Shown piece by piece: positions 878 through 12,846 of a DNA stretch of 15,584 bases. The stretch lies in contig JAEWAU010000077.1 in assembly GCA_023391535.1 (NCBI GenBank), positions 1 to 15,584 of the forward strand, in the 5' to 3' direction. The notes under the pieces were generated by a model. The model saw only the letters and a program-made list of their open reading frames with translations. It was not told the DNA's origin and did no database searches. The stretch's first letter is position 1. The number at the start of each line of letters is the position of its first letter. This stretch comes from Bacillota bacterium (GTDB lineage: Bacteria > Bacillota > Clostridia > Oscillospirales > Ethanoligenentaceae). The translations under genes and the position numbers were made by a program.

Positions 878-986
878 GGTTGCGGCGTTCCATAAAAGCC
901 TGAAAGAGACTTCGTTTCGTCCGCCTGTCTTCGCGAAAAGGCGAAACGCTTCCAAAGCCGTCGGTCTTTTCTGGAGATGCCGCGGG
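878..986 (-). repeat. Copy C5 (minus orientation) of the ~105-nt intergenic repeat/structured-RNA-like element family.
   Basis: The reverse complement begins cccgcggcatctccagaaaag...ggaagcgtttcgccttttcgcg and ends ggcttttatggaacgccgc. This aligns block by block with the copy at 9350-9460. Confidence 0.6.
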
Positions 987-9085: not shown

Positions 9086-9124
9086 ACGCACTCCTTCTCC
9101 CGGTTTTCACCGTACGTCCCATTC

Positions 9125-9163
9125 TATGCCCGCGCGCGCACCGTTATGCCCGGGCGCGCACCG
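9125..9163. repeat. Tandem direct repeat (2 x 19 nt, 20-bp period) in the tspO/mazF divergent region. Candidate operator.
   Basis: TATGCCCGCGCGCGCACCG / TATGCCCGGGCGCGCACCG, 17/19 identical. The minus strand of the first unit ends in the TAGAAT -10-like hexamer of the putative tspO promoter (9121-9126). Confidence 0.5.
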
Positions 9164-9349
9164 AACTCGGACAAAGTGAAAAGTTGTCCCACATCACACC
9201 GGCGGCGAATATACTGAACCAGAAGCGAAAATATTTTTCCCGCTTTGCCAATACCCGACAGACATCTGTTTTGAAATATATGGATATTCAAGGGAATTTC
9301 ATGTTTAAACGGCGCATTTTTGCGGCACAATAAAAATGGTTCCGGCAAT

Positions 9350-9460
9350 CCTGCAGCATTTCCAGAAAAGATGGATGCATTCCGAAGCGATTCGCCTTTT
9401 GCCGGAGGCAAACAGACGAATCGCGGCTTCCCCCGATTTTTATGGAATTGCCGCCATGCG
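9350..9460 (+). repeat. Copy C1 (plus orientation) of the ~105-nt element. It forms the 5' leader of mazF.
   Basis: cctgcagcatttccagaaaag...ccgaagcgattcgccttttgccggagg...acagacgaatcGCGGCTTCCcccgatttttatGGAATTGCCGCc. The first 21 nt are the exact reverse complement of 10723-10743. Confidence 0.65.
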
Positions 9461-9512
9461 CTTCCGAGGCGCCGCCGGGGCCGTAGAAAATCTTACCGGA
9501 GAGTGGAGAGTC

Positions 9513-9890
9513 GTGACGGTTCACAGAGGAGAAATCTATTACGCCGATCTCAGCCCCGTTGTCGGGTCCGAGCAAGGCGGCGTGCGGCCGGTGCTGATCG
9601 TGCAGAACGACGTCGGCAACCGGTACAGTCCCACCGTGATCGCGGCGGCGATCACGAGCCAAACAGCTAAAACGCGGCTGCCCACGCACATCAACATCAA
9701 TGCCGACAGCTGCGGGCTTTCGAAAAATTCCGTGGTGCTTCTCGAACAGATTCGGACCCTCGACAAGAGGAGGCTCAAAGAGCGCATGGGCACGCTGGAT
9801 ATACCTTCCATGCAGAAGGTGGACAATGCGCTCACCATCAGTTTCGGGCTTGGCCTGAAAGGTTCCAGCCGGGGCGTGGAACATACATAA
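9513..9890 (+). CDS. mazF: MazF/PemK-family mRNA interferase (EndoA/NdoA-like endoribonuclease toxin).
   Basis: Near-identity blocks to Bacillus EndoA: [28 protein letters not shown] and [19 protein letters not shown] start 9513 follows RBS GGAGAGTGGAGAG. The in-frame upstream 59 codons (from ATG 9336) have no RBS and overlap the repeat element. Confidence 0.85.
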
Positions 9891-10120: not shown

Positions 10121-10306
10121 ATGCCCAATATCACCGACCGGGAGCTGGAAACGCTGCAGAATCTGCTCGGGAACGAGCAGGTGCTCGTAAAAAAGTACCG
10201 CTTTTTCGCCTCCTCCTGCACCGATCCTCAGCTCCGCGTCAAATTCCAGCAGATGGCGGCGCGCCACACGGACCATTTCAACCGCCTGCTCAGCTACCTG
10301 AACTGA
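10121..10306 (+). CDS. Small CotF-family (Coat_F domain) spore coat protein, 61 aa.
   Basis: Coat_F-like N-terminal pattern TDRELETLQNLLGNEQVLVKKY. RBS GGAAGG 10 nt upstream of the ATG. Paired with a second Coat_F gene, as in Bacillus yraD/yraF. Confidence 0.65.
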   Translation: MPNITDRELETLQNLLGNEQVLVKKYRFFASSCTDPQLRVKFQQMAARHTDHFNRLLSYLN

Positions 10307-10360: not shown

Positions 10361-10639
10361 ATGGATCAGAATCAGAACAGCGCCAACGTCCTGGGCGACC
10401 GGGAAATGCTGGAGGATTTTATCTCCTCCCAAAAGCACCTCACGGAAAGCTATAATGCATTCGCCAATACCTGTGCCACGCCCAATCTGCGAGACGAATA
10501 CATGAACATCCTCAAAGACGAGCACCAGATTGAGGCGGAGCTGCTCGACGAGTCGCTCAAGCGGGGCTGGATGCAGATTCAGCAGGCAGACCTGCAAAAA
10601 GCGGCGCAGCTTAAGCAGCAATATCAGAACGCTTTTTAG
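10361..10639 (+). CDS. CotF-family (Coat_F domain) spore coat protein, 92 aa.
   Basis: LGDREMLEDFISSQKHLTESYNAFANTCATPNLR is typical of Coat_F domain proteins. RBS GGAAAGGAAAG 7 nt upstream. Confidence 0.7.
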   Translation: MDQNQNSANVLGDREMLEDFISSQKHLTESYNAFANTCATPNLRDEYMNILKDEHQIEAELLDESLKRGWMQIQQADLQKAAQLKQQYQNAF

Positions 10640-10743
10640 CAATTCCGGTAAAGATTGAGAAAAGCCGTATTTTGTCTCGGTTTGGCAAAATACCCCCGAA
10701 ATATCCCGGAATGATCCGATCTTTTCTGGAAATGCTGCAGGCT
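10639..10743 (-). repeat. Copy C2 (minus orientation) of the ~105-nt element. The most divergent copy; its end overlaps the cotF stop codon.
   Basis: Reverse complement begins cctgcagcatttccagaaaag, a 21-nt exact match to C1, and ends ...ctttaccggaattgct. Confidence 0.6.
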
Positions 10744-10765
10744 GGCGGGAAACCGCCCGGCAAAC

Positions 10766-10803
10766 GGCTCCGGACCGCGCGGGCGCGTTCCGGAGCCTTT
10801 TGC
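10766..10803 (+). terminator. Rho-independent terminator for the cotF pair.
   Basis: Perfect 8-bp inverted repeat GGCTCCGG / CCGGAGCC with a 16-nt GC-rich loop, followed by TTTTGCC. Confidence 0.55.
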
Positions 10804-10810
10804 CGGTTTA

Positions 10811-10908
10811 TAGCAACTTCATAAAAAATTGAGAAAAGTTGCGTTCCGCCCCTCCGGCGGAAAGGCGGAACGCTTCGGAACCTGCCAAACTTTTCTGGAA
10901 ATGCTGTA
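10811..10908 (-). repeat. Copy C3 (minus orientation) of the ~105-nt element, in tandem with C2.
   Basis: Reverse complement: tacagcatttccagaaaag tttggcaggttccgaagcg ttccgcctttccgccggagg ...GCAACTTttctcaattttttatgAAGTTGCta. The hairpin stem covaries with C1 and C4. Confidence 0.65.
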
Positions 10909-10916
10909 AAGAGCAC

Positions 10917-10958
10917 AAAAAGCGGAGGACCTCCCATAACGGGAAGCCCTCCAGAGGT
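10917..10958 (-). terminator. Rho-independent terminator of the SASP gene (minus strand).
   Basis: Minus-strand RNA GGAGGGCUUCCC-GUUAU-GGGAGGUCCUCC forms a 12-bp stem with two G-U pairs, followed by GCUUUUUGUG. Confidence 0.7.
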
Positions 10959-10959
10959 C

Positions 10960-11127
10960 TTATTTTGGTACGTTGCGCTCCGCCATCTCAATCGCCTTTT
11001 TGACGATATTGCCGCAATCGCGGCTTGAAACGGAACCCCAGCCCTCGCGTTTGACCTGTTCGTCAACCCCGAGTTCCTTGGCTATTTCATATTTGAGCTG
11101 CTCGCTCATCATGGAATGCCTGCCCAT
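10960..11127 (-). CDS. Alpha/beta-type small acid-soluble spore protein (SASP), 55 aa.
   Basis: MGRHSMMSEQLKYEIAKELGVDEQVKREGWGSVSSRDCGNIVKKAIEMAERNVPK. The KYEIA-ELGV and GSV..R.CGNIVK blocks are hallmark SASP motifs. RBS AAGGGGG 8 nt upstream of ATG 11127. It is the C-terminal part of a spurious 608-aa ORF. Confidence 0.8.
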   Translation of the reverse strand: MGRHSMMSEQLKYEIAKELGVDEQVKREGWGSVSSRDCGNIVKKAIEMAERNVPK

Positions 11128-11466
11128 CGCTAAGACCCCCTTCATGGTGTTGCCATGATACGCTTCAAAGAGAGGCGTTTCCGGGATGCACGGATTCCGG
11201 TTCGGCGCGTTTAGCTTTCGTTTTCCCGCCATAAGCGGGAAGGACGCGAGCCCTTCGTGTCTTCCGCTTCGTCCGTGCGCTCTTATTGTGTGCGCGCCGC
11301 GCAAAGATATGCGCCTCCAAAAAACGGCTGCGGCATCCTGGCAAAAGCAAAAATATTTCTTTGTTTCCCGGTTTATTTTGAACGCGCAGCCGCCAAAGCG
11401 GCCGTATCGCGCATAAACCGCCCCGCGCGCGCATAAGATTGCACCGGCACGGTTCGCCGATCCGCC

Positions 11467-11495
11467 TTGCGAAAAAGTGCGGAATATGATACAAT
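11467..11495 (+). promoter_or_regulatory. Strong sigma-A-type promoter with extended -10 driving the dac gene.
   Basis: -35 TTGCGA (11467-11472), 17-nt spacer, TGaTACAAT extended -10 (11487-11495). Predicted TSS about 11502, just before the start of repeat copy C4. Confidence 0.65.
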
Positions 11496-11505
11496 ATAAA
11501 TAATG

Positions 11506-11618
11506 CCGTTTCCAGCATTTCTGGAAAAACCGGCATATTTCAATGCATTTCGCCGAATCGAGAGAGACAGACGGAATGCAGTTCCTCCCGATCTTTATGG
11601 AATTGCTATAGCGATGCG
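11506..11618 (+). repeat. Copy C4 (plus orientation) of the ~105-nt element. It forms the entire 5' UTR of the dac gene.
   Basis: ccgtttccagcatttctggaaaaacc...atgcatttcgccgaatcg...acagacggaatGCAGTTCCtcccgatctttatGGAATTGCtatagcgatgcg. Here the 5' motif has an inverted central tetranucleotide (CTGG versus CCAG) and folds as its own 7-bp hairpin UUUCCAG-CAUUU-CUGGAAA. Confidence 0.65.
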
Positions 11619-11661
11619 GCCCGGAAAACGGCCGGACATCCGGAAGGGGCGACAAAGCGTT

Positions 11662-12846
11662 ATGAGGCGAAAACCACCCTGCGGTAGAATGATACTTTCT
11701 GCATTGCTGGCGGTTTTTTTCTTGTTTACAGGCTCCGTCCTGCCTGGCTCCGCCGCAGCGCCCGCCGCGGCGAGTTTTGCCTCCTCCGCTCCCGATATCA
11801 CCGCCGTGAGCGCCATTGTGGCGGACGCGGGCACCGGCGCCATCTTCTACGAGAAAGACATGCACCGCGCGATGTACCCGGCGAGCATCACCAAAATTCT
11901 CACGGGGCTGCTTGCCGTGGAGCGCGGGAATACGCAGAGCGCCTTCGCGGTGACGCCCACGGCGCTTTCCGCAATGCCGTCCAACGCGGCGCGCGCGGGG
12001 CTTGTTTCCGGGGAGCAGATCACGCTCGACGAAGCGCTCTACACCATGTTTCTCGCTTCGGCCAACGATTCGGCGAACGCCATCGCCATCCAGGTCGGCG
12101 GCTCCATCCCGAATTTCGTGCAGATGATGAACGCGCGCGCCAAACAGCTCGGCGCCGTGGACAGCCATTTCGACAATCCCAGCGGGCTGCCGGATAAAAA
12201 CAACCTCACCAGCGCCTACGATATGGCGATCATCACGCGTCAGGCCCTGGAAGAGCCTTCCCTGATGAAATATTTCGGCGCGAAATCCTACGTGATGCCC
12301 GCAACGAACAAATATCCCAAAACGCGCGCGTTCACCACGCTTCAGAAGATGATGAAAGACACCGCCTACCAGTACGACGGCACCATCGCGGGCAAAACCG
12401 GGTGGGAAACGATGTCCGGCCACACGCTGGTGACGGCCGCGCAGCGAAACGGCCGCACGCTCATCTGCGTGGTGCTCAGAAGCAGCGACGGGTATTCGGT
12501 GTACCAGGATTCCATCAAGCTGCTCAATTACAGCTTCACGTTGCCCGCGTCCTACAGCGTCGGCTCGCTTCTGGCGCCGGCAGCCGCGCAGCCTTCGTCT
12601 TCGGCCCAAAGCACACGCTTCGCCTCCTCTTCCCCCGCCGTACCTTCCAAAGCGGCGGTTCATACGGGAAAAATCGCCGTCCCGCGCGATATGGGCACCA
12701 CCGCGGCTCCGATTCTGCTCCTTTTGTTCATCCTCTGCCCGTTCGTCCTTTTCCTGCTGCTGCGCCGCCCGAAGCTCGCCGCCCAACAGCCCGAGCCGCC
12801 CCGCGCGCGCATCCGGCCGCGCCGCCCGCCTGAAGGACGCCCGTAA
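11662..12846 (+). CDS. D-alanyl-D-alanine carboxypeptidase (peptidase S11; DacB/DacF-like low-molecular-weight PBP) with signal peptide and C-terminal membrane anchor.
   Basis: Active-site motifs ASITK (SxxK), SAND-like SANDSAN and KTG (AGKTGWE). N-terminal signal MRRKPPCGRMILSALLAVFFLFTG; hydrophobic C-terminus ILLLLFILCPFVLFLLL. ATG 11662 with RBS GGAAGGGG 11 nt upstream. The opposite-strand ORF 10960..12786 is spurious here. Confidence 0.85.
   Translation: MRRKPPCGRMILSALLAVFFLFTGSVLPGSAAAPAAASFASSAPDITAVSAIVADAGTGAIFYEKDMHRAMYPASITKILTGLLAVERGNTQSAFAVTPTALSAMPSNAARAGLVSGEQITLDEALYTMFLASANDSANAIAIQVGGSIPNFVQMMNARAKQLGAVDSHFDNPSGLPDKNNLTSAYDMAIITRQALEEPSLMKYFGAKSYVMPATNKYPKTRAFTTLQKMMKDTAYQYDGTIAGKTGWETMSGHTLVTAAQRNGRTLICVVLRSSDGYSVYQDSIKLLNYSFTLPASYSVGSLLAPAAAQPSSSAQSTRFASSSPAVPSKAAVHTGKIAVPRDMGTTAAPILLLLFILCPFVLFLLLRRPKLAAQQPEPPRARIRPRRPPEGRP

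What the first reader, a model, noticed from the sequence alone, without database searches (positions are those of the whole stretch)
10639..10958. Two tandem minus-orientation element copies sit between convergent cotF and SASP genes, with no downstream gene
C3 and C2 follow the SASP terminator on the minus strand and run into the 3' end of the plus-strand cotF gene. C2 overlaps the cotF stop codon. A plus-strand terminator (10766-10803) lies between them. Because no gene lies downstream of them, they cannot be simple 5' leaders. They may be independent small RNA genes, antisense regulators of the cotF 3' end, or mobile repeats.
Basis: seen in the sequence. Interest (0 to 1): 0.6.

Follow-up and report, generated by a model that had tools for sequence, protein, structure and literature searches.

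The report
Two decayed mobile hairpin repeats (MITEs)
The two "element copies" between the spore-coat gene cotF and the SASP gene are worn copies of a roughly 100-bp mobile hairpin repeat (a bacterial MITE), one of which landed in the last codons of cotF and now supplies its stop codon; this is an ordinary kind of genome feature from a family not recorded in Rfam.

Summary
C2 (10637-10737) and C3 (10811-10906) are two minus-orientation copies of a ~100-nt repeat. The window holds five copies, and the same scaffold holds at least two more plus a remnant. A model built without C2 and C3 still finds them (E = 3.5e-16 and 2.7e-19).

The repeat has about 20-nt terminal inverted repeats (TACAGCAWTTCCAGAAAAGA), TA at its ends (7 of 13 ends, p ~1e-7) and a variable central hairpin. 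It lies only between genes, in both orientations. It also occurs in unrelated 41%-GC genomes. Relatives that keep the same gene order lack it at the matching positions.

Removing C2 plus one TA restores the C-terminus seen in cotF homologues. The window reads ...N-A-F-stop. After removal it reads N-A-L-G followed by TGG, where a relative has GGC TGA. So C2 inserted into the TA of a Leu codon and supplies the present stop codon.

There is no G-U strand bias (13 vs 11), no Rfam match and no minus-strand promoter-like site. In other strains C2 has lost 11 bp of its inner stem.

Verdict: these are MITE-type mobile repeats, probably of the IS630/Tc1 (TA-target) type. They are not small-RNA genes or antisense regulators. 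New member of a known kind, low-to-moderate interest.

The parts
10637..10737 (-). C2, a MITE copy of 101 nt. On the + strand it runs TAGCAATTCC...GGAAATGCTG. Its first three + strand bases are the cotF stop codon TAG.
   Evidence: leave-out E = 3.5e-16. An 11-bp deletion and extra substitutions are seen in other strains.
10635..10636 (.). Left flank of C2 (TT), read as a mutated copy of the TA target duplication.
   Evidence: read from sequence. Reconstruction against homologues.
10738..10745 (+). Right flank of C2: CA (a mutated TA copy), then GGC TGG. GGC TGG is read as the relic of the ancestral last Gly codon and stop codon of cotF (GGC TGA in relative L169).
10811..10906 (-). C3, a MITE copy of 96 nt. 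Its minus-strand inner hairpin (10873-10841) followed by UUUUCUCAAUUUUUU looks like an intrinsic terminator.
   Evidence: -40 kcal/mol, z = -4.5; leave-out E = 2.7e-19
10809..10810 (.). TA flanking C3 on the left (+ strand).
   Evidence: TA enrichment
10907..10908 (.). TA flanking C3 on the right (+ strand).
10757..10806 (+). Unique palindrome (24-nt arms) between the two copies, taken to be the cotF transcription terminator. It is not part of the repeat family.
   Evidence: I9; unique in 35 kb; strain polymorphism, loop flip
10913..10953 (-). SASP intrinsic terminator (stem 10953-10923, T-tail to 10913).
10361..10639 (+). cotF-like gene (Coat_F domain). Its C-terminus was changed from ...NALG to ...NAF by the C2 insertion.
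10960..11127 (-). Alpha/beta-type SASP gene, 55 aa.
9354..9453 (+). Copy A of the same family, in the divergent TspO / mazF spacer.
11513..11608 (+). Copy E, in the divergent SASP / D-Ala-D-Ala carboxypeptidase spacer. TA follows at 11609-11610. The 5' flank is TC here but TA in strain L170.
883..982 (-). Copy D, between two plus-strand genes (175-807 and the DAO gene from about 1159).

Best explanation
C2 and C3 are two old, decaying copies of a ~100-bp non-autonomous transposable repeat, a bacterial MITE. The element has ~20-nt terminal inverted repeats (TACAGCAWTTCCAGAAAAGA), TA at both ends and a variable central hairpin. It is scattered through this uncultured Clostridia genome and occurs in other Clostridia. 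A MITE carries no gene, so it needs no downstream gene.

The ancestral cotF/SASP spacer was about 100 nt and held only the two terminators. One copy (C3) inserted at a TA in the A/T-rich stretch between the two terminator hairpins. The other (C2) inserted at the TA of the penultimate Leu codon of cotF. That insertion replaced Leu-Gly-stop by Phe-stop, and the new stop codon comes from the element's terminal bases.

What is shown: repeat family membership, inverted ends, TA flanks, dispersal, absence at matching sites in relatives, and the restored cotF C-terminus after in-silico excision.

What is inferred: (i) mobilisation in trans by a DDE transposase of the IS630/Tc1-mariner type, based on the TA target plus TIRs beginning CAG (the CAG comparison is recalled from memory); (ii) C2 is transcribed as part of the cotF 3' UTR ahead of the terminator and folds into a long hairpin there; (iii) the minus-strand hairpin-plus-U-run of C3 can act as a back-up terminator behind the SASP terminator.
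For: Family and copies: there are 5 copies in the window. On the same scaffold there are also F (L122:5428-5536), the 3'-truncated G (L122:1896-1986) and a remnant. The leave-out and foreign-only HMMs recover C2 and C3.

Inverted ends: the termini pair with each other in all 9 aligned copies (87.9% of cells paired, against 31-55% when partners are slid). The L128 copy has near-perfect 20-nt TIRs.

TA ends: TA lies on both sides of C3, F, L128, L161a and E (E in strain L170). That is 7 of 13 ends in this genome, against a background of 0.025-0.036, P about 1e-7 to 1e-8.

Insertion into cotF: homologues end QN(A/I)LG-stop, with DNA TTA GGC TGA in L169 and CTT GGT TAA plus a terminator in L171. 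The window reads GCT TT|TT|[C2]|CA|GGC TGG.

Not conserved with the genes: L169 keeps TspO-mazF-cotF-cotF and has no copy in 20 kb. L171, L165 and the L161 SASP-dac spacer lack copies at matching places, although L161 carries 3 copies elsewhere.

No RNA-strand signal: G-U 13 vs A-C 11, p = 0.84. The more stable strand differs from copy to copy.

Decay: C2 has an 11-bp deletion of one inner-stem arm plus TIR substitutions in strains L120, L166 and L167. C2 and C3 together show about 2.7% events, against about 0.5-0.7% elsewhere.

No Rfam family matches. The features match the published description of bacterial MITEs: under 200 bp, TIRs, TA termini, target duplication, long stem-loops, and RUP at 107 bp with IS630-Spn1 (PMC2229807).
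Against: No autonomous partner element or transposase with matching ends was found. None lies in the 35 kb of scaffold, and the viral and plasmid searches were empty.

No true filled/empty polymorphism was seen. All strains at 97-100% identity carry C2, C3 and E. The empty sites are therefore inferred from relatives with about 60% protein identity.

Copies within this genome are only about 63-65% identical, which is older than typical active MITE families. Yet the central stem keeps pairing through changes on both sides (5 of 6 inner pairs; 17 cells against 6.6 in shuffles, 0/500). That hints at selection on, or a mechanism maintaining, the hairpin itself.

TA could be part of the inverted repeat rather than a target duplication.
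Confidence: 0.8

Rival explanations
1. The elements began as mobile repeats but are now kept by the host as cis-acting hairpins. Possible roles are extra terminators or insulators between convergent, highly expressed sporulation genes, or 3'-UTR hairpins that change mRNA stability, as shown for ERIC and Correia elements. This reading can hold alongside the MITE origin.
For: The minus-strand inner hairpin of C3 (15 pairs, 10 G-C) followed by a T-rich tail meets the terminator rule, directly behind the SASP terminator. The antisense fold of C2 inside the cotF 3' UTR is stable (-34.3 kcal/mol, z = -3.96). Hairpin pairing is kept through double changes across copies. Precedents are described in PMC2229807.
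Against: C2 lost an arm of its inner stem in other strains with no sign of compensation. C2 and C3 change faster than neighbouring sequence. The terminator-like look is specific to C3: the low-GC copies and copies A and E lack a proper stem-plus-U-run. Relatives manage without the elements. There is no strand bias.
Confidence: 0.2
2. C2 and C3 are independent small-RNA genes transcribed from the minus strand.
For: Each folds into a long hairpin. C3 ends in a terminator-like hairpin with a U-run.
Against: No promoter-like site lies upstream of either copy on the minus strand (sporulation sigma-factor promoters were not covered). They start directly after the SASP terminator. There is no Rfam match and no G-U strand bias. 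Copies occur in both orientations. They are absent in syntenic relatives. C2's stem is deleted in other strains.
Confidence: 0.04
3. They act as antisense regulators of the cotF 3' end.
For: C2 overlaps the cotF stop codon and lies opposite the cotF 3' UTR.
Against: The overlap is explained by the insertion itself. Minus-strand transcription would have to pass the SASP terminator, the C3 hairpin and the palindrome. By textbook knowledge of sporulation, SASP genes are expressed in the forespore and coat genes in the mother cell, so the two RNAs would seldom meet. The arrangement is not conserved in relatives.
Confidence: 0.03
4. The repeat belongs to a different mobile class that moves as single-stranded hairpins: REPIN/RAYT elements or IS200/IS605-derived palindromic elements.
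For: The whole element is one long hairpin. Five copies have TTAC at the 5' junction (C3, E in L170, F, G, L161a), which recalls IS608-type target tetranucleotides (from memory).
Against: The ends are symmetric inverted repeats with TA on both sides, a feature IS200/IS605 derivatives do not have. The 17-nt end is not itself a REP-like palindrome and has no GTAG/CTAC core. No RAYT or TnpA gene lies in the 35 kb.
Confidence: 0.08

Closest known systems
RUP (repeat unit of pneumococcus), the MITE linked to IS630-Spn1 in Streptococcus pneumoniae
   Same: About 100-107 bp, non-coding, intergenic, with terminal inverted repeats, TA at the insertion site and a long stem-loop. It is found in a Firmicute (PMC2229807).
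   Different: No sequence similarity was tested or known. RUP copies are highly similar to each other, while these are about 65% identical. RUP has a known partner IS with matching ends, and none was found here. These TIRs are longer (~20 nt vs 9 bp contiguous).
Correia / NEMIS elements of Neisseria
   Same: About 107-155 bp, TIRs of ~24 bp, TA duplication, inserted next to genes. They are co-transcribed as hairpins and can affect transcripts (PMC2229807). That they can terminate or process transcripts is recalled from memory.
   Different: A different phylum and different sequence. An IHF site and promoter elements are not shown here.
ERIC/IRU and RPE (Rickettsia palindromic elements)
   Same: Palindromic mobile repeats. 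They are co-transcribed with flanking genes and linked to mRNA stability (ERIC), or are found inserted in protein-coding genes (RPE) (PMC2229807). C2 likewise altered the CotF C-terminus and supplies the stop codon.
   Different: C2 truncates two codons rather than adding an in-frame peptide. There is no sequence relationship.
REP/REPIN elements mobilised by RAYT
   Same: Abundant intergenic hairpin repeats, often near terminators.
   Different: REPs are short palindromes with a conserved tetranucleotide and a linked RAYT gene (recalled from memory). Here the ends are not self-palindromic, TA flanks both ends, and no RAYT gene is seen.

Membership tests
Bacterial MITE (criteria of PMC2229807) | Small (<200 bp) element with no gene of its own | tested here: met
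   Copies are 96-101 nt. No conserved ORF is present. The only ORFs crossing copies are run-through calls such as 10611-11066 and the extended mazF call.
Bacterial MITE (criteria of PMC2229807) | Terminal inverted repeats | tested here: met
   The outer helix of 17 pairs is 90% paired over 9 copies. L128 has TACAGCAATTCCAGAAAAGA / TCTTTTCTGGAAATGCTGTA.
Bacterial MITE (criteria of PMC2229807) | 5'-TA-3' at the termini | tested here: met
   7 of 13 ends in this genome, P about 1e-7. Both ends of L128 and L161a carry TA.
Bacterial MITE (criteria of PMC2229807) | Target-site duplication shown by filled versus empty sites | tested here: inconclusive
   No empty site exists among the 97-100% identical strains. 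Removing C2 plus one TA restores the homologous cotF end N-A-L-G plus a near-stop codon, which supports a TA duplication. This is a reconstruction and was not observed directly.
Bacterial MITE (criteria of PMC2229807) | Many dispersed copies in one genome, in both orientations | tested here: met
   7 copies and a remnant lie in 35 kb of one scaffold, 3 on the plus strand and 4 on the minus strand. The whole-genome count could not be obtained.
Bacterial MITE (criteria of PMC2229807) | Transcript or DNA folds into a long stem-loop | tested here: met
IS630 / Tc1-mariner-derived MITE | Ends match those of an IS630-family element encoding a DDE transposase | not testable with these tools
   No partner was found in the viral or plasmid collections or in the fetched loci.
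IS630 / Tc1-mariner-derived MITE | Insertion into TA with TA duplication | tested here: inconclusive
   TA flanks are strongly enriched and the cotF reconstruction fits. TA could still be part of the TIR.
Any curated RNA family (Rfam 15) | Match to a covariance model at or near the gathering score | tested here: not met
   There are 0 hits at gathering score in the window. Only chance-level miRNA or RUF6 hits appear at E <= 10 in 10500-11700.
Strand-specific structured RNA (sRNA or leader) | G-U pairs favoured on one strand; conserved position relative to genes | tested here: not met
   G-U 13 vs A-C 11. The more stable strand differs from copy to copy. The element is absent at syntenic sites.
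REP/REPIN-RAYT | Short self-palindromic REP units with a conserved tetranucleotide and a linked RAYT gene | tested here: not met
   The 17-nt end is not a usable palindrome (TTTC-CA-GAAA only; read from sequence). No transposase-like gene is among the called genes of L118, L122 and L125.
Integron attC site | Core sites RYYYAAC / GTTRRRY and same-orientation cassette arrays | tested here: not met
   The ends are CAGCAWTTCC, with no GTTRRRY. Copies lie in both orientations among housekeeping genes such as groEL.
Intrinsic terminator | G+C-rich stem followed by a U-run | tested here: inconclusive
   C3 on the minus strand meets the rule. Other copies do not, so this is not a property of the family.

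The most novel reading that the evidence does not exclude
The repeat may be more than decaying junk. Its 17-nt end is identical in genomes of 41% and 61% G+C, and its central stem keeps pairing through changes on both sides in most copies. So it could be a host-retained module: a hairpin that terminates or stabilises transcripts, or a carrier of a protein-binding site. The end resembles a CodY box at 11 of 15 positions (recalled from memory, untested). Such a module could spread regulatory or insulating sites around sporulation and stress genes in a clade of uncultured Clostridia.
Probability: 0.12. Interest if true: 0.6.

Novelty: new member of a known kind. Interest (0 to 1): 0.28.

Why it matters
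It removes a false lead: these are not orphan small-RNA genes or antisense regulators. It also gives a concrete case of a MITE rewriting the end of a sporulation gene, with the CotF C-terminus changed and the stop codon donated by the repeat. The work defines a MITE family absent from Rfam. That family breaks metagenome assemblies at this locus and misleads gene callers, which translate the repeat as an N-terminal extension of mazF. Its very conserved ends give a handle for finding the partner transposase in Clostridia genomes.

Tried and rejected
All 117 loci were chance hits without the rest of the element, so the only genome-collection scan was lost.

2. The metagenome scan with a two-part pattern gave 4 loci, of which only one (L128) holds a true element.

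3. Three viral-contig scans and a plasmid BLAST found nothing real. The one promising hit (L162) lies inside a phage structural gene.

4. A search for a second inverted end within each 8-kb locus, to find a full-length IS, found none.

5. Rfam at gathering score and at E <= 10 gave nothing meaningful.

6. The search for empty sites in near strains failed, because all of them carry the copies.

The nearest named relative of the carboxypeptidase is Ethanoligenens, at 47% identity.

8. Walking along the scaffold through a protein search returned only other strains' short contigs, so it was dropped.

9. The orientation argument (sense copies upstream of genes) was rejected. Those copies lie in divergent spacers, and the three informative tandem spacers split 2:1.

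10. The integron attC, REPIN and retron readings were rejected on sequence features.

Full report
OBSERVATION. The interval 10639-10958 lies between a plus-strand Coat_F gene (10361-10639, Pfam E = 3.6e-16) and a minus-strand alpha/beta SASP gene (10960-11127, E = 4.2e-10). It holds two copies of a repeat, both in the same (minus) orientation. The 17-mer CTTTTCTGGAAATGCTG occurs five times in the window at <=3 mismatches, against 0.06 expected. Aligning the five places gives a ~100-nt element with conserved ends and a variable centre. The refined limits are:
- D 883-982 (-)
- A 9354-9453 (+)
- C2 10637-10737 (-)
- C3 10811-10906 (-)
- E 11513-11608 (+)

To avoid circularity I built a profile without C2 and C3. 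It finds them full length at E = 3.5e-16 and 2.7e-19. A profile made only from copies in other organisms finds them at 1.4e-7 and 8.5e-7. Between the two copies lies a palindrome with 24-nt arms (10757-10806). It is unique in the 35 kb available and reads as the cotF terminator. The SASP terminator is at 10953-10923 on the minus strand.

ANATOMY. The two ends of each copy are inverted repeats of each other. Over nine aligned copies, a 17-pair outer helix is 90% paired and a 6-pair inner helix is 82% paired. Sliding the partners by 1-3 columns drops pairing to 31-55%. One end always reads GCATTTCC and the other GCAATTCC, so the element has distinct left and right ends, as a deletion derivative of an insertion sequence would. 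Using the ends defined by the best-preserved copies, TA flanks the element on both sides in C3, F, L128, L161a and E (E in strain L170). In this 61%-GC genome, 7 of 13 ends carry TA against a background frequency of 0.025-0.036, P about 1e-7.

DISTRIBUTION. The window comes from a 151.7-kb metagenome scaffold (ENA ERZ28601458 scaffold_32). In the 35 kb I could fetch there are seven copies and one remnant. The extra ones are F, downstream of groEL, and G, between an AraC gene and an APH gene with its 3' half lost. All are intergenic, three on the plus strand and four on the minus strand.

The family is not confined to this organism. A 41%-GC metagenome contig (L128) has a copy with near-perfect 20-nt inverted ends, TACAGCAATTCCAGAAAAGA / TCTTTTCTGGAAATGCTGTA. 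A 41%-GC relative (L161) has three copies, one of them lacking the central hairpin.

Rfam has no matching family. Viral and plasmid collections hold no copy.

NOT A CONSERVED PART OF THE NEIGHBOURING GENES. L169 is a relative with 61% identical CotF and the same TspO-mazF-cotF-cotF order. It has no copy anywhere in 20 kb, neither upstream of mazF (where A sits) nor downstream of cotF (where C2 sits). In L171, cotF is followed directly by a terminator. The SASP-carboxypeptidase spacer of L161 and the upstream region of the carboxypeptidase in L165 have no copy where E sits.

C2 IS AN INSERTION INTO THE END OF cotF. CotF homologues end ...Q-N-(A/I)-L-G-stop. The DNA is AAT ATT TTA GGC TGA in L169 and AAC GCG CTT GGT TAA in L171. 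The window reads AAC GCT TT|TT|[TAGCAATTCC ... GGAAATGCTG]|CA|GGC TGG. Removing the bracketed element and one of the two flanking dinucleotides, each one substitution away from TA, gives AAC GCT TTA GGC TGG. That translates as N-A-L-G followed by a codon one change away from TGA. The six bases after the right flank match L169's GGC TGA at 5 of 6 positions, which has a chance probability of about 0.005 at a fixed position.

So the element entered the TA of the Leu codon. CotF now ends ...N-A-F, and its stop codon TAG (10637-10639) is the terminal trinucleotide of the repeat. C3 has intact TA on both sides (10809-10810 and 10907-10908). Removing it joins the cotF terminator to the SASP terminator through a short A/T-rich stretch. 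The ancestral spacer was therefore about 100 nt with two terminators, much like the compact arrangement in L171.

TESTS OF THE RNA READINGS.
- If the hairpin were selected in an RNA of one strand, G-U pairs should outnumber A-C mismatches on that strand. The counts are 13 and 11 (p = 0.84).
- Single-copy folds favour the sense strand in C3 and D and the antisense strand in A, C2 and E.
- No sigma-70-type promoter-like site lies upstream of C3 or C2 on the minus strand. Sporulation sigma factors were not covered by that scan.
- In three other strains (99% and about 97% identical overall), C2 has an 11-bp deletion that removes one arm of its inner stem, plus substitutions in its inverted end. 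C2 and C3 together show about 2.7% changes, against about 0.5-0.7% in the surrounding sequence.

These results argue against small-RNA genes and against antisense regulators.

WHAT REMAINS OPEN.
1. I found no autonomous partner. The assignment to the IS630/Tc1-mariner type rests only on the TA flanks and on TIRs that begin CAG. The resemblance to Tc1-type ends is recalled from memory and was not tested.
2. No filled/empty polymorphism was seen among close strains.
3. The copies in this genome are only about 65% identical, yet the inner stem keeps pairing through changes on both sides. This holds for 5 of 6 pairs, with 17 cells against 6.6 in shuffles (0 of 500 shuffles reach the observed value). 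The hairpin may matter for transposition, or for something the host uses, or a palindrome-maintaining process may be at work.
4. On the minus strand, C3's inner hairpin (15 pairs) plus UUUUCUCAAUUUUUU meets a terminator rule directly behind the SASP terminator. C2 sits inside the cotF 3' UTR, where it folds at -34 kcal/mol (z = -4). Effects on termination or mRNA stability are therefore plausible, as documented for ERIC and Correia elements (PMC2229807). They are not shown here and are not a property of the whole family.

COMPARISON AND VERDICT. The element meets the published description of bacterial MITEs: under 200 bp, inverted ends, TA termini, dispersed copies and a long stem-loop (PMC2229807). 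The closest analogue is RUP of S. pneumoniae (107 bp, TA target, IS630-Spn1). It fails the tests for an Rfam family, a strand-specific RNA, REP/REPIN and attC. It is a new family of a known kind. Interest is low to moderate. The useful points are the clean case of a MITE donating a stop codon to a spore-coat gene, the very conserved ends across genomes of very different base composition, and the practical effects on assembly and gene calling at this locus.

Noticed in passing
window 9092-9890: The mazF/PemK toxin gene (9513-9890) has no antitoxin gene upstream; the spacer holds only repeat copy A. Public gene calls start the gene at 9336 and so translate the repeat as a 59-residue N-terminal extension (184 vs 125 aa). 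Relatives L169 and L171 also show mazF with no called antitoxin.
   Followed up: partly
window 10757-10806: The terminator palindrome is polymorphic. The window has C at 10765 and 10775 where four other assemblies have A, which makes a perfect palindrome. Strain L120 has the loop bases flipped (GG to CC at 10781-10782), as happens by hairpin template switching.
   Followed up: partly
window 10762-10850: Seven public contigs (L119, L121, L123, L126, L166, L167, L170) begin or end inside this stretch. The repeat/palindrome cluster breaks short-read assemblies here.
   Followed up: no
window 9405-9451 and 11560-11606: Copies A and E share a distinct 3' half (77% identical, D7). It has a C-rich run (CCCCC / CCUCCC) where C2, C3 and F have UUCUCAAU. 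They form a subfamily, and the C-rich run could pair with a Shine-Dalgarno sequence.
   Followed up: no
window 11467-11495: A TG-extended sigma-A-like promoter (TTGCGA-17-TACAAT) ends about 17 nt before copy E. The 5' UTR of the D-Ala-D-Ala carboxypeptidase mRNA would therefore carry the E hairpin.
   Followed up: no
element 5' end, e.g. window 9357-9371: CATTTCCAGAAAAGA matches the CodY-box consensus AATTTTCWGAAAATT at 11 of 15 positions. The consensus is recalled from memory and was not tested.
   Followed up: no
L122:8815-8861; L122:1896-1986; L161:1810-1872: These are decayed relatives of the repeat: a short remnant with paired ends only, a copy without its 3' half, and a copy whose central hairpin is deleted.
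   Followed up: partly
window 10960-11232: Public gene calls give the SASP 90 aa. The Pfam domain and a GGGGG ribosome-binding site support the 55-aa form starting at ATG 11127.
   Followed up: partly
window 10121-10306 and 10361-10639: Two small Coat_F-like genes lie in tandem. The first (61 aa) matches Coat_F only weakly (E = 0.003, below the curated cut-off). The pair is conserved together with mazF in L169 and L171.
   Followed up: no
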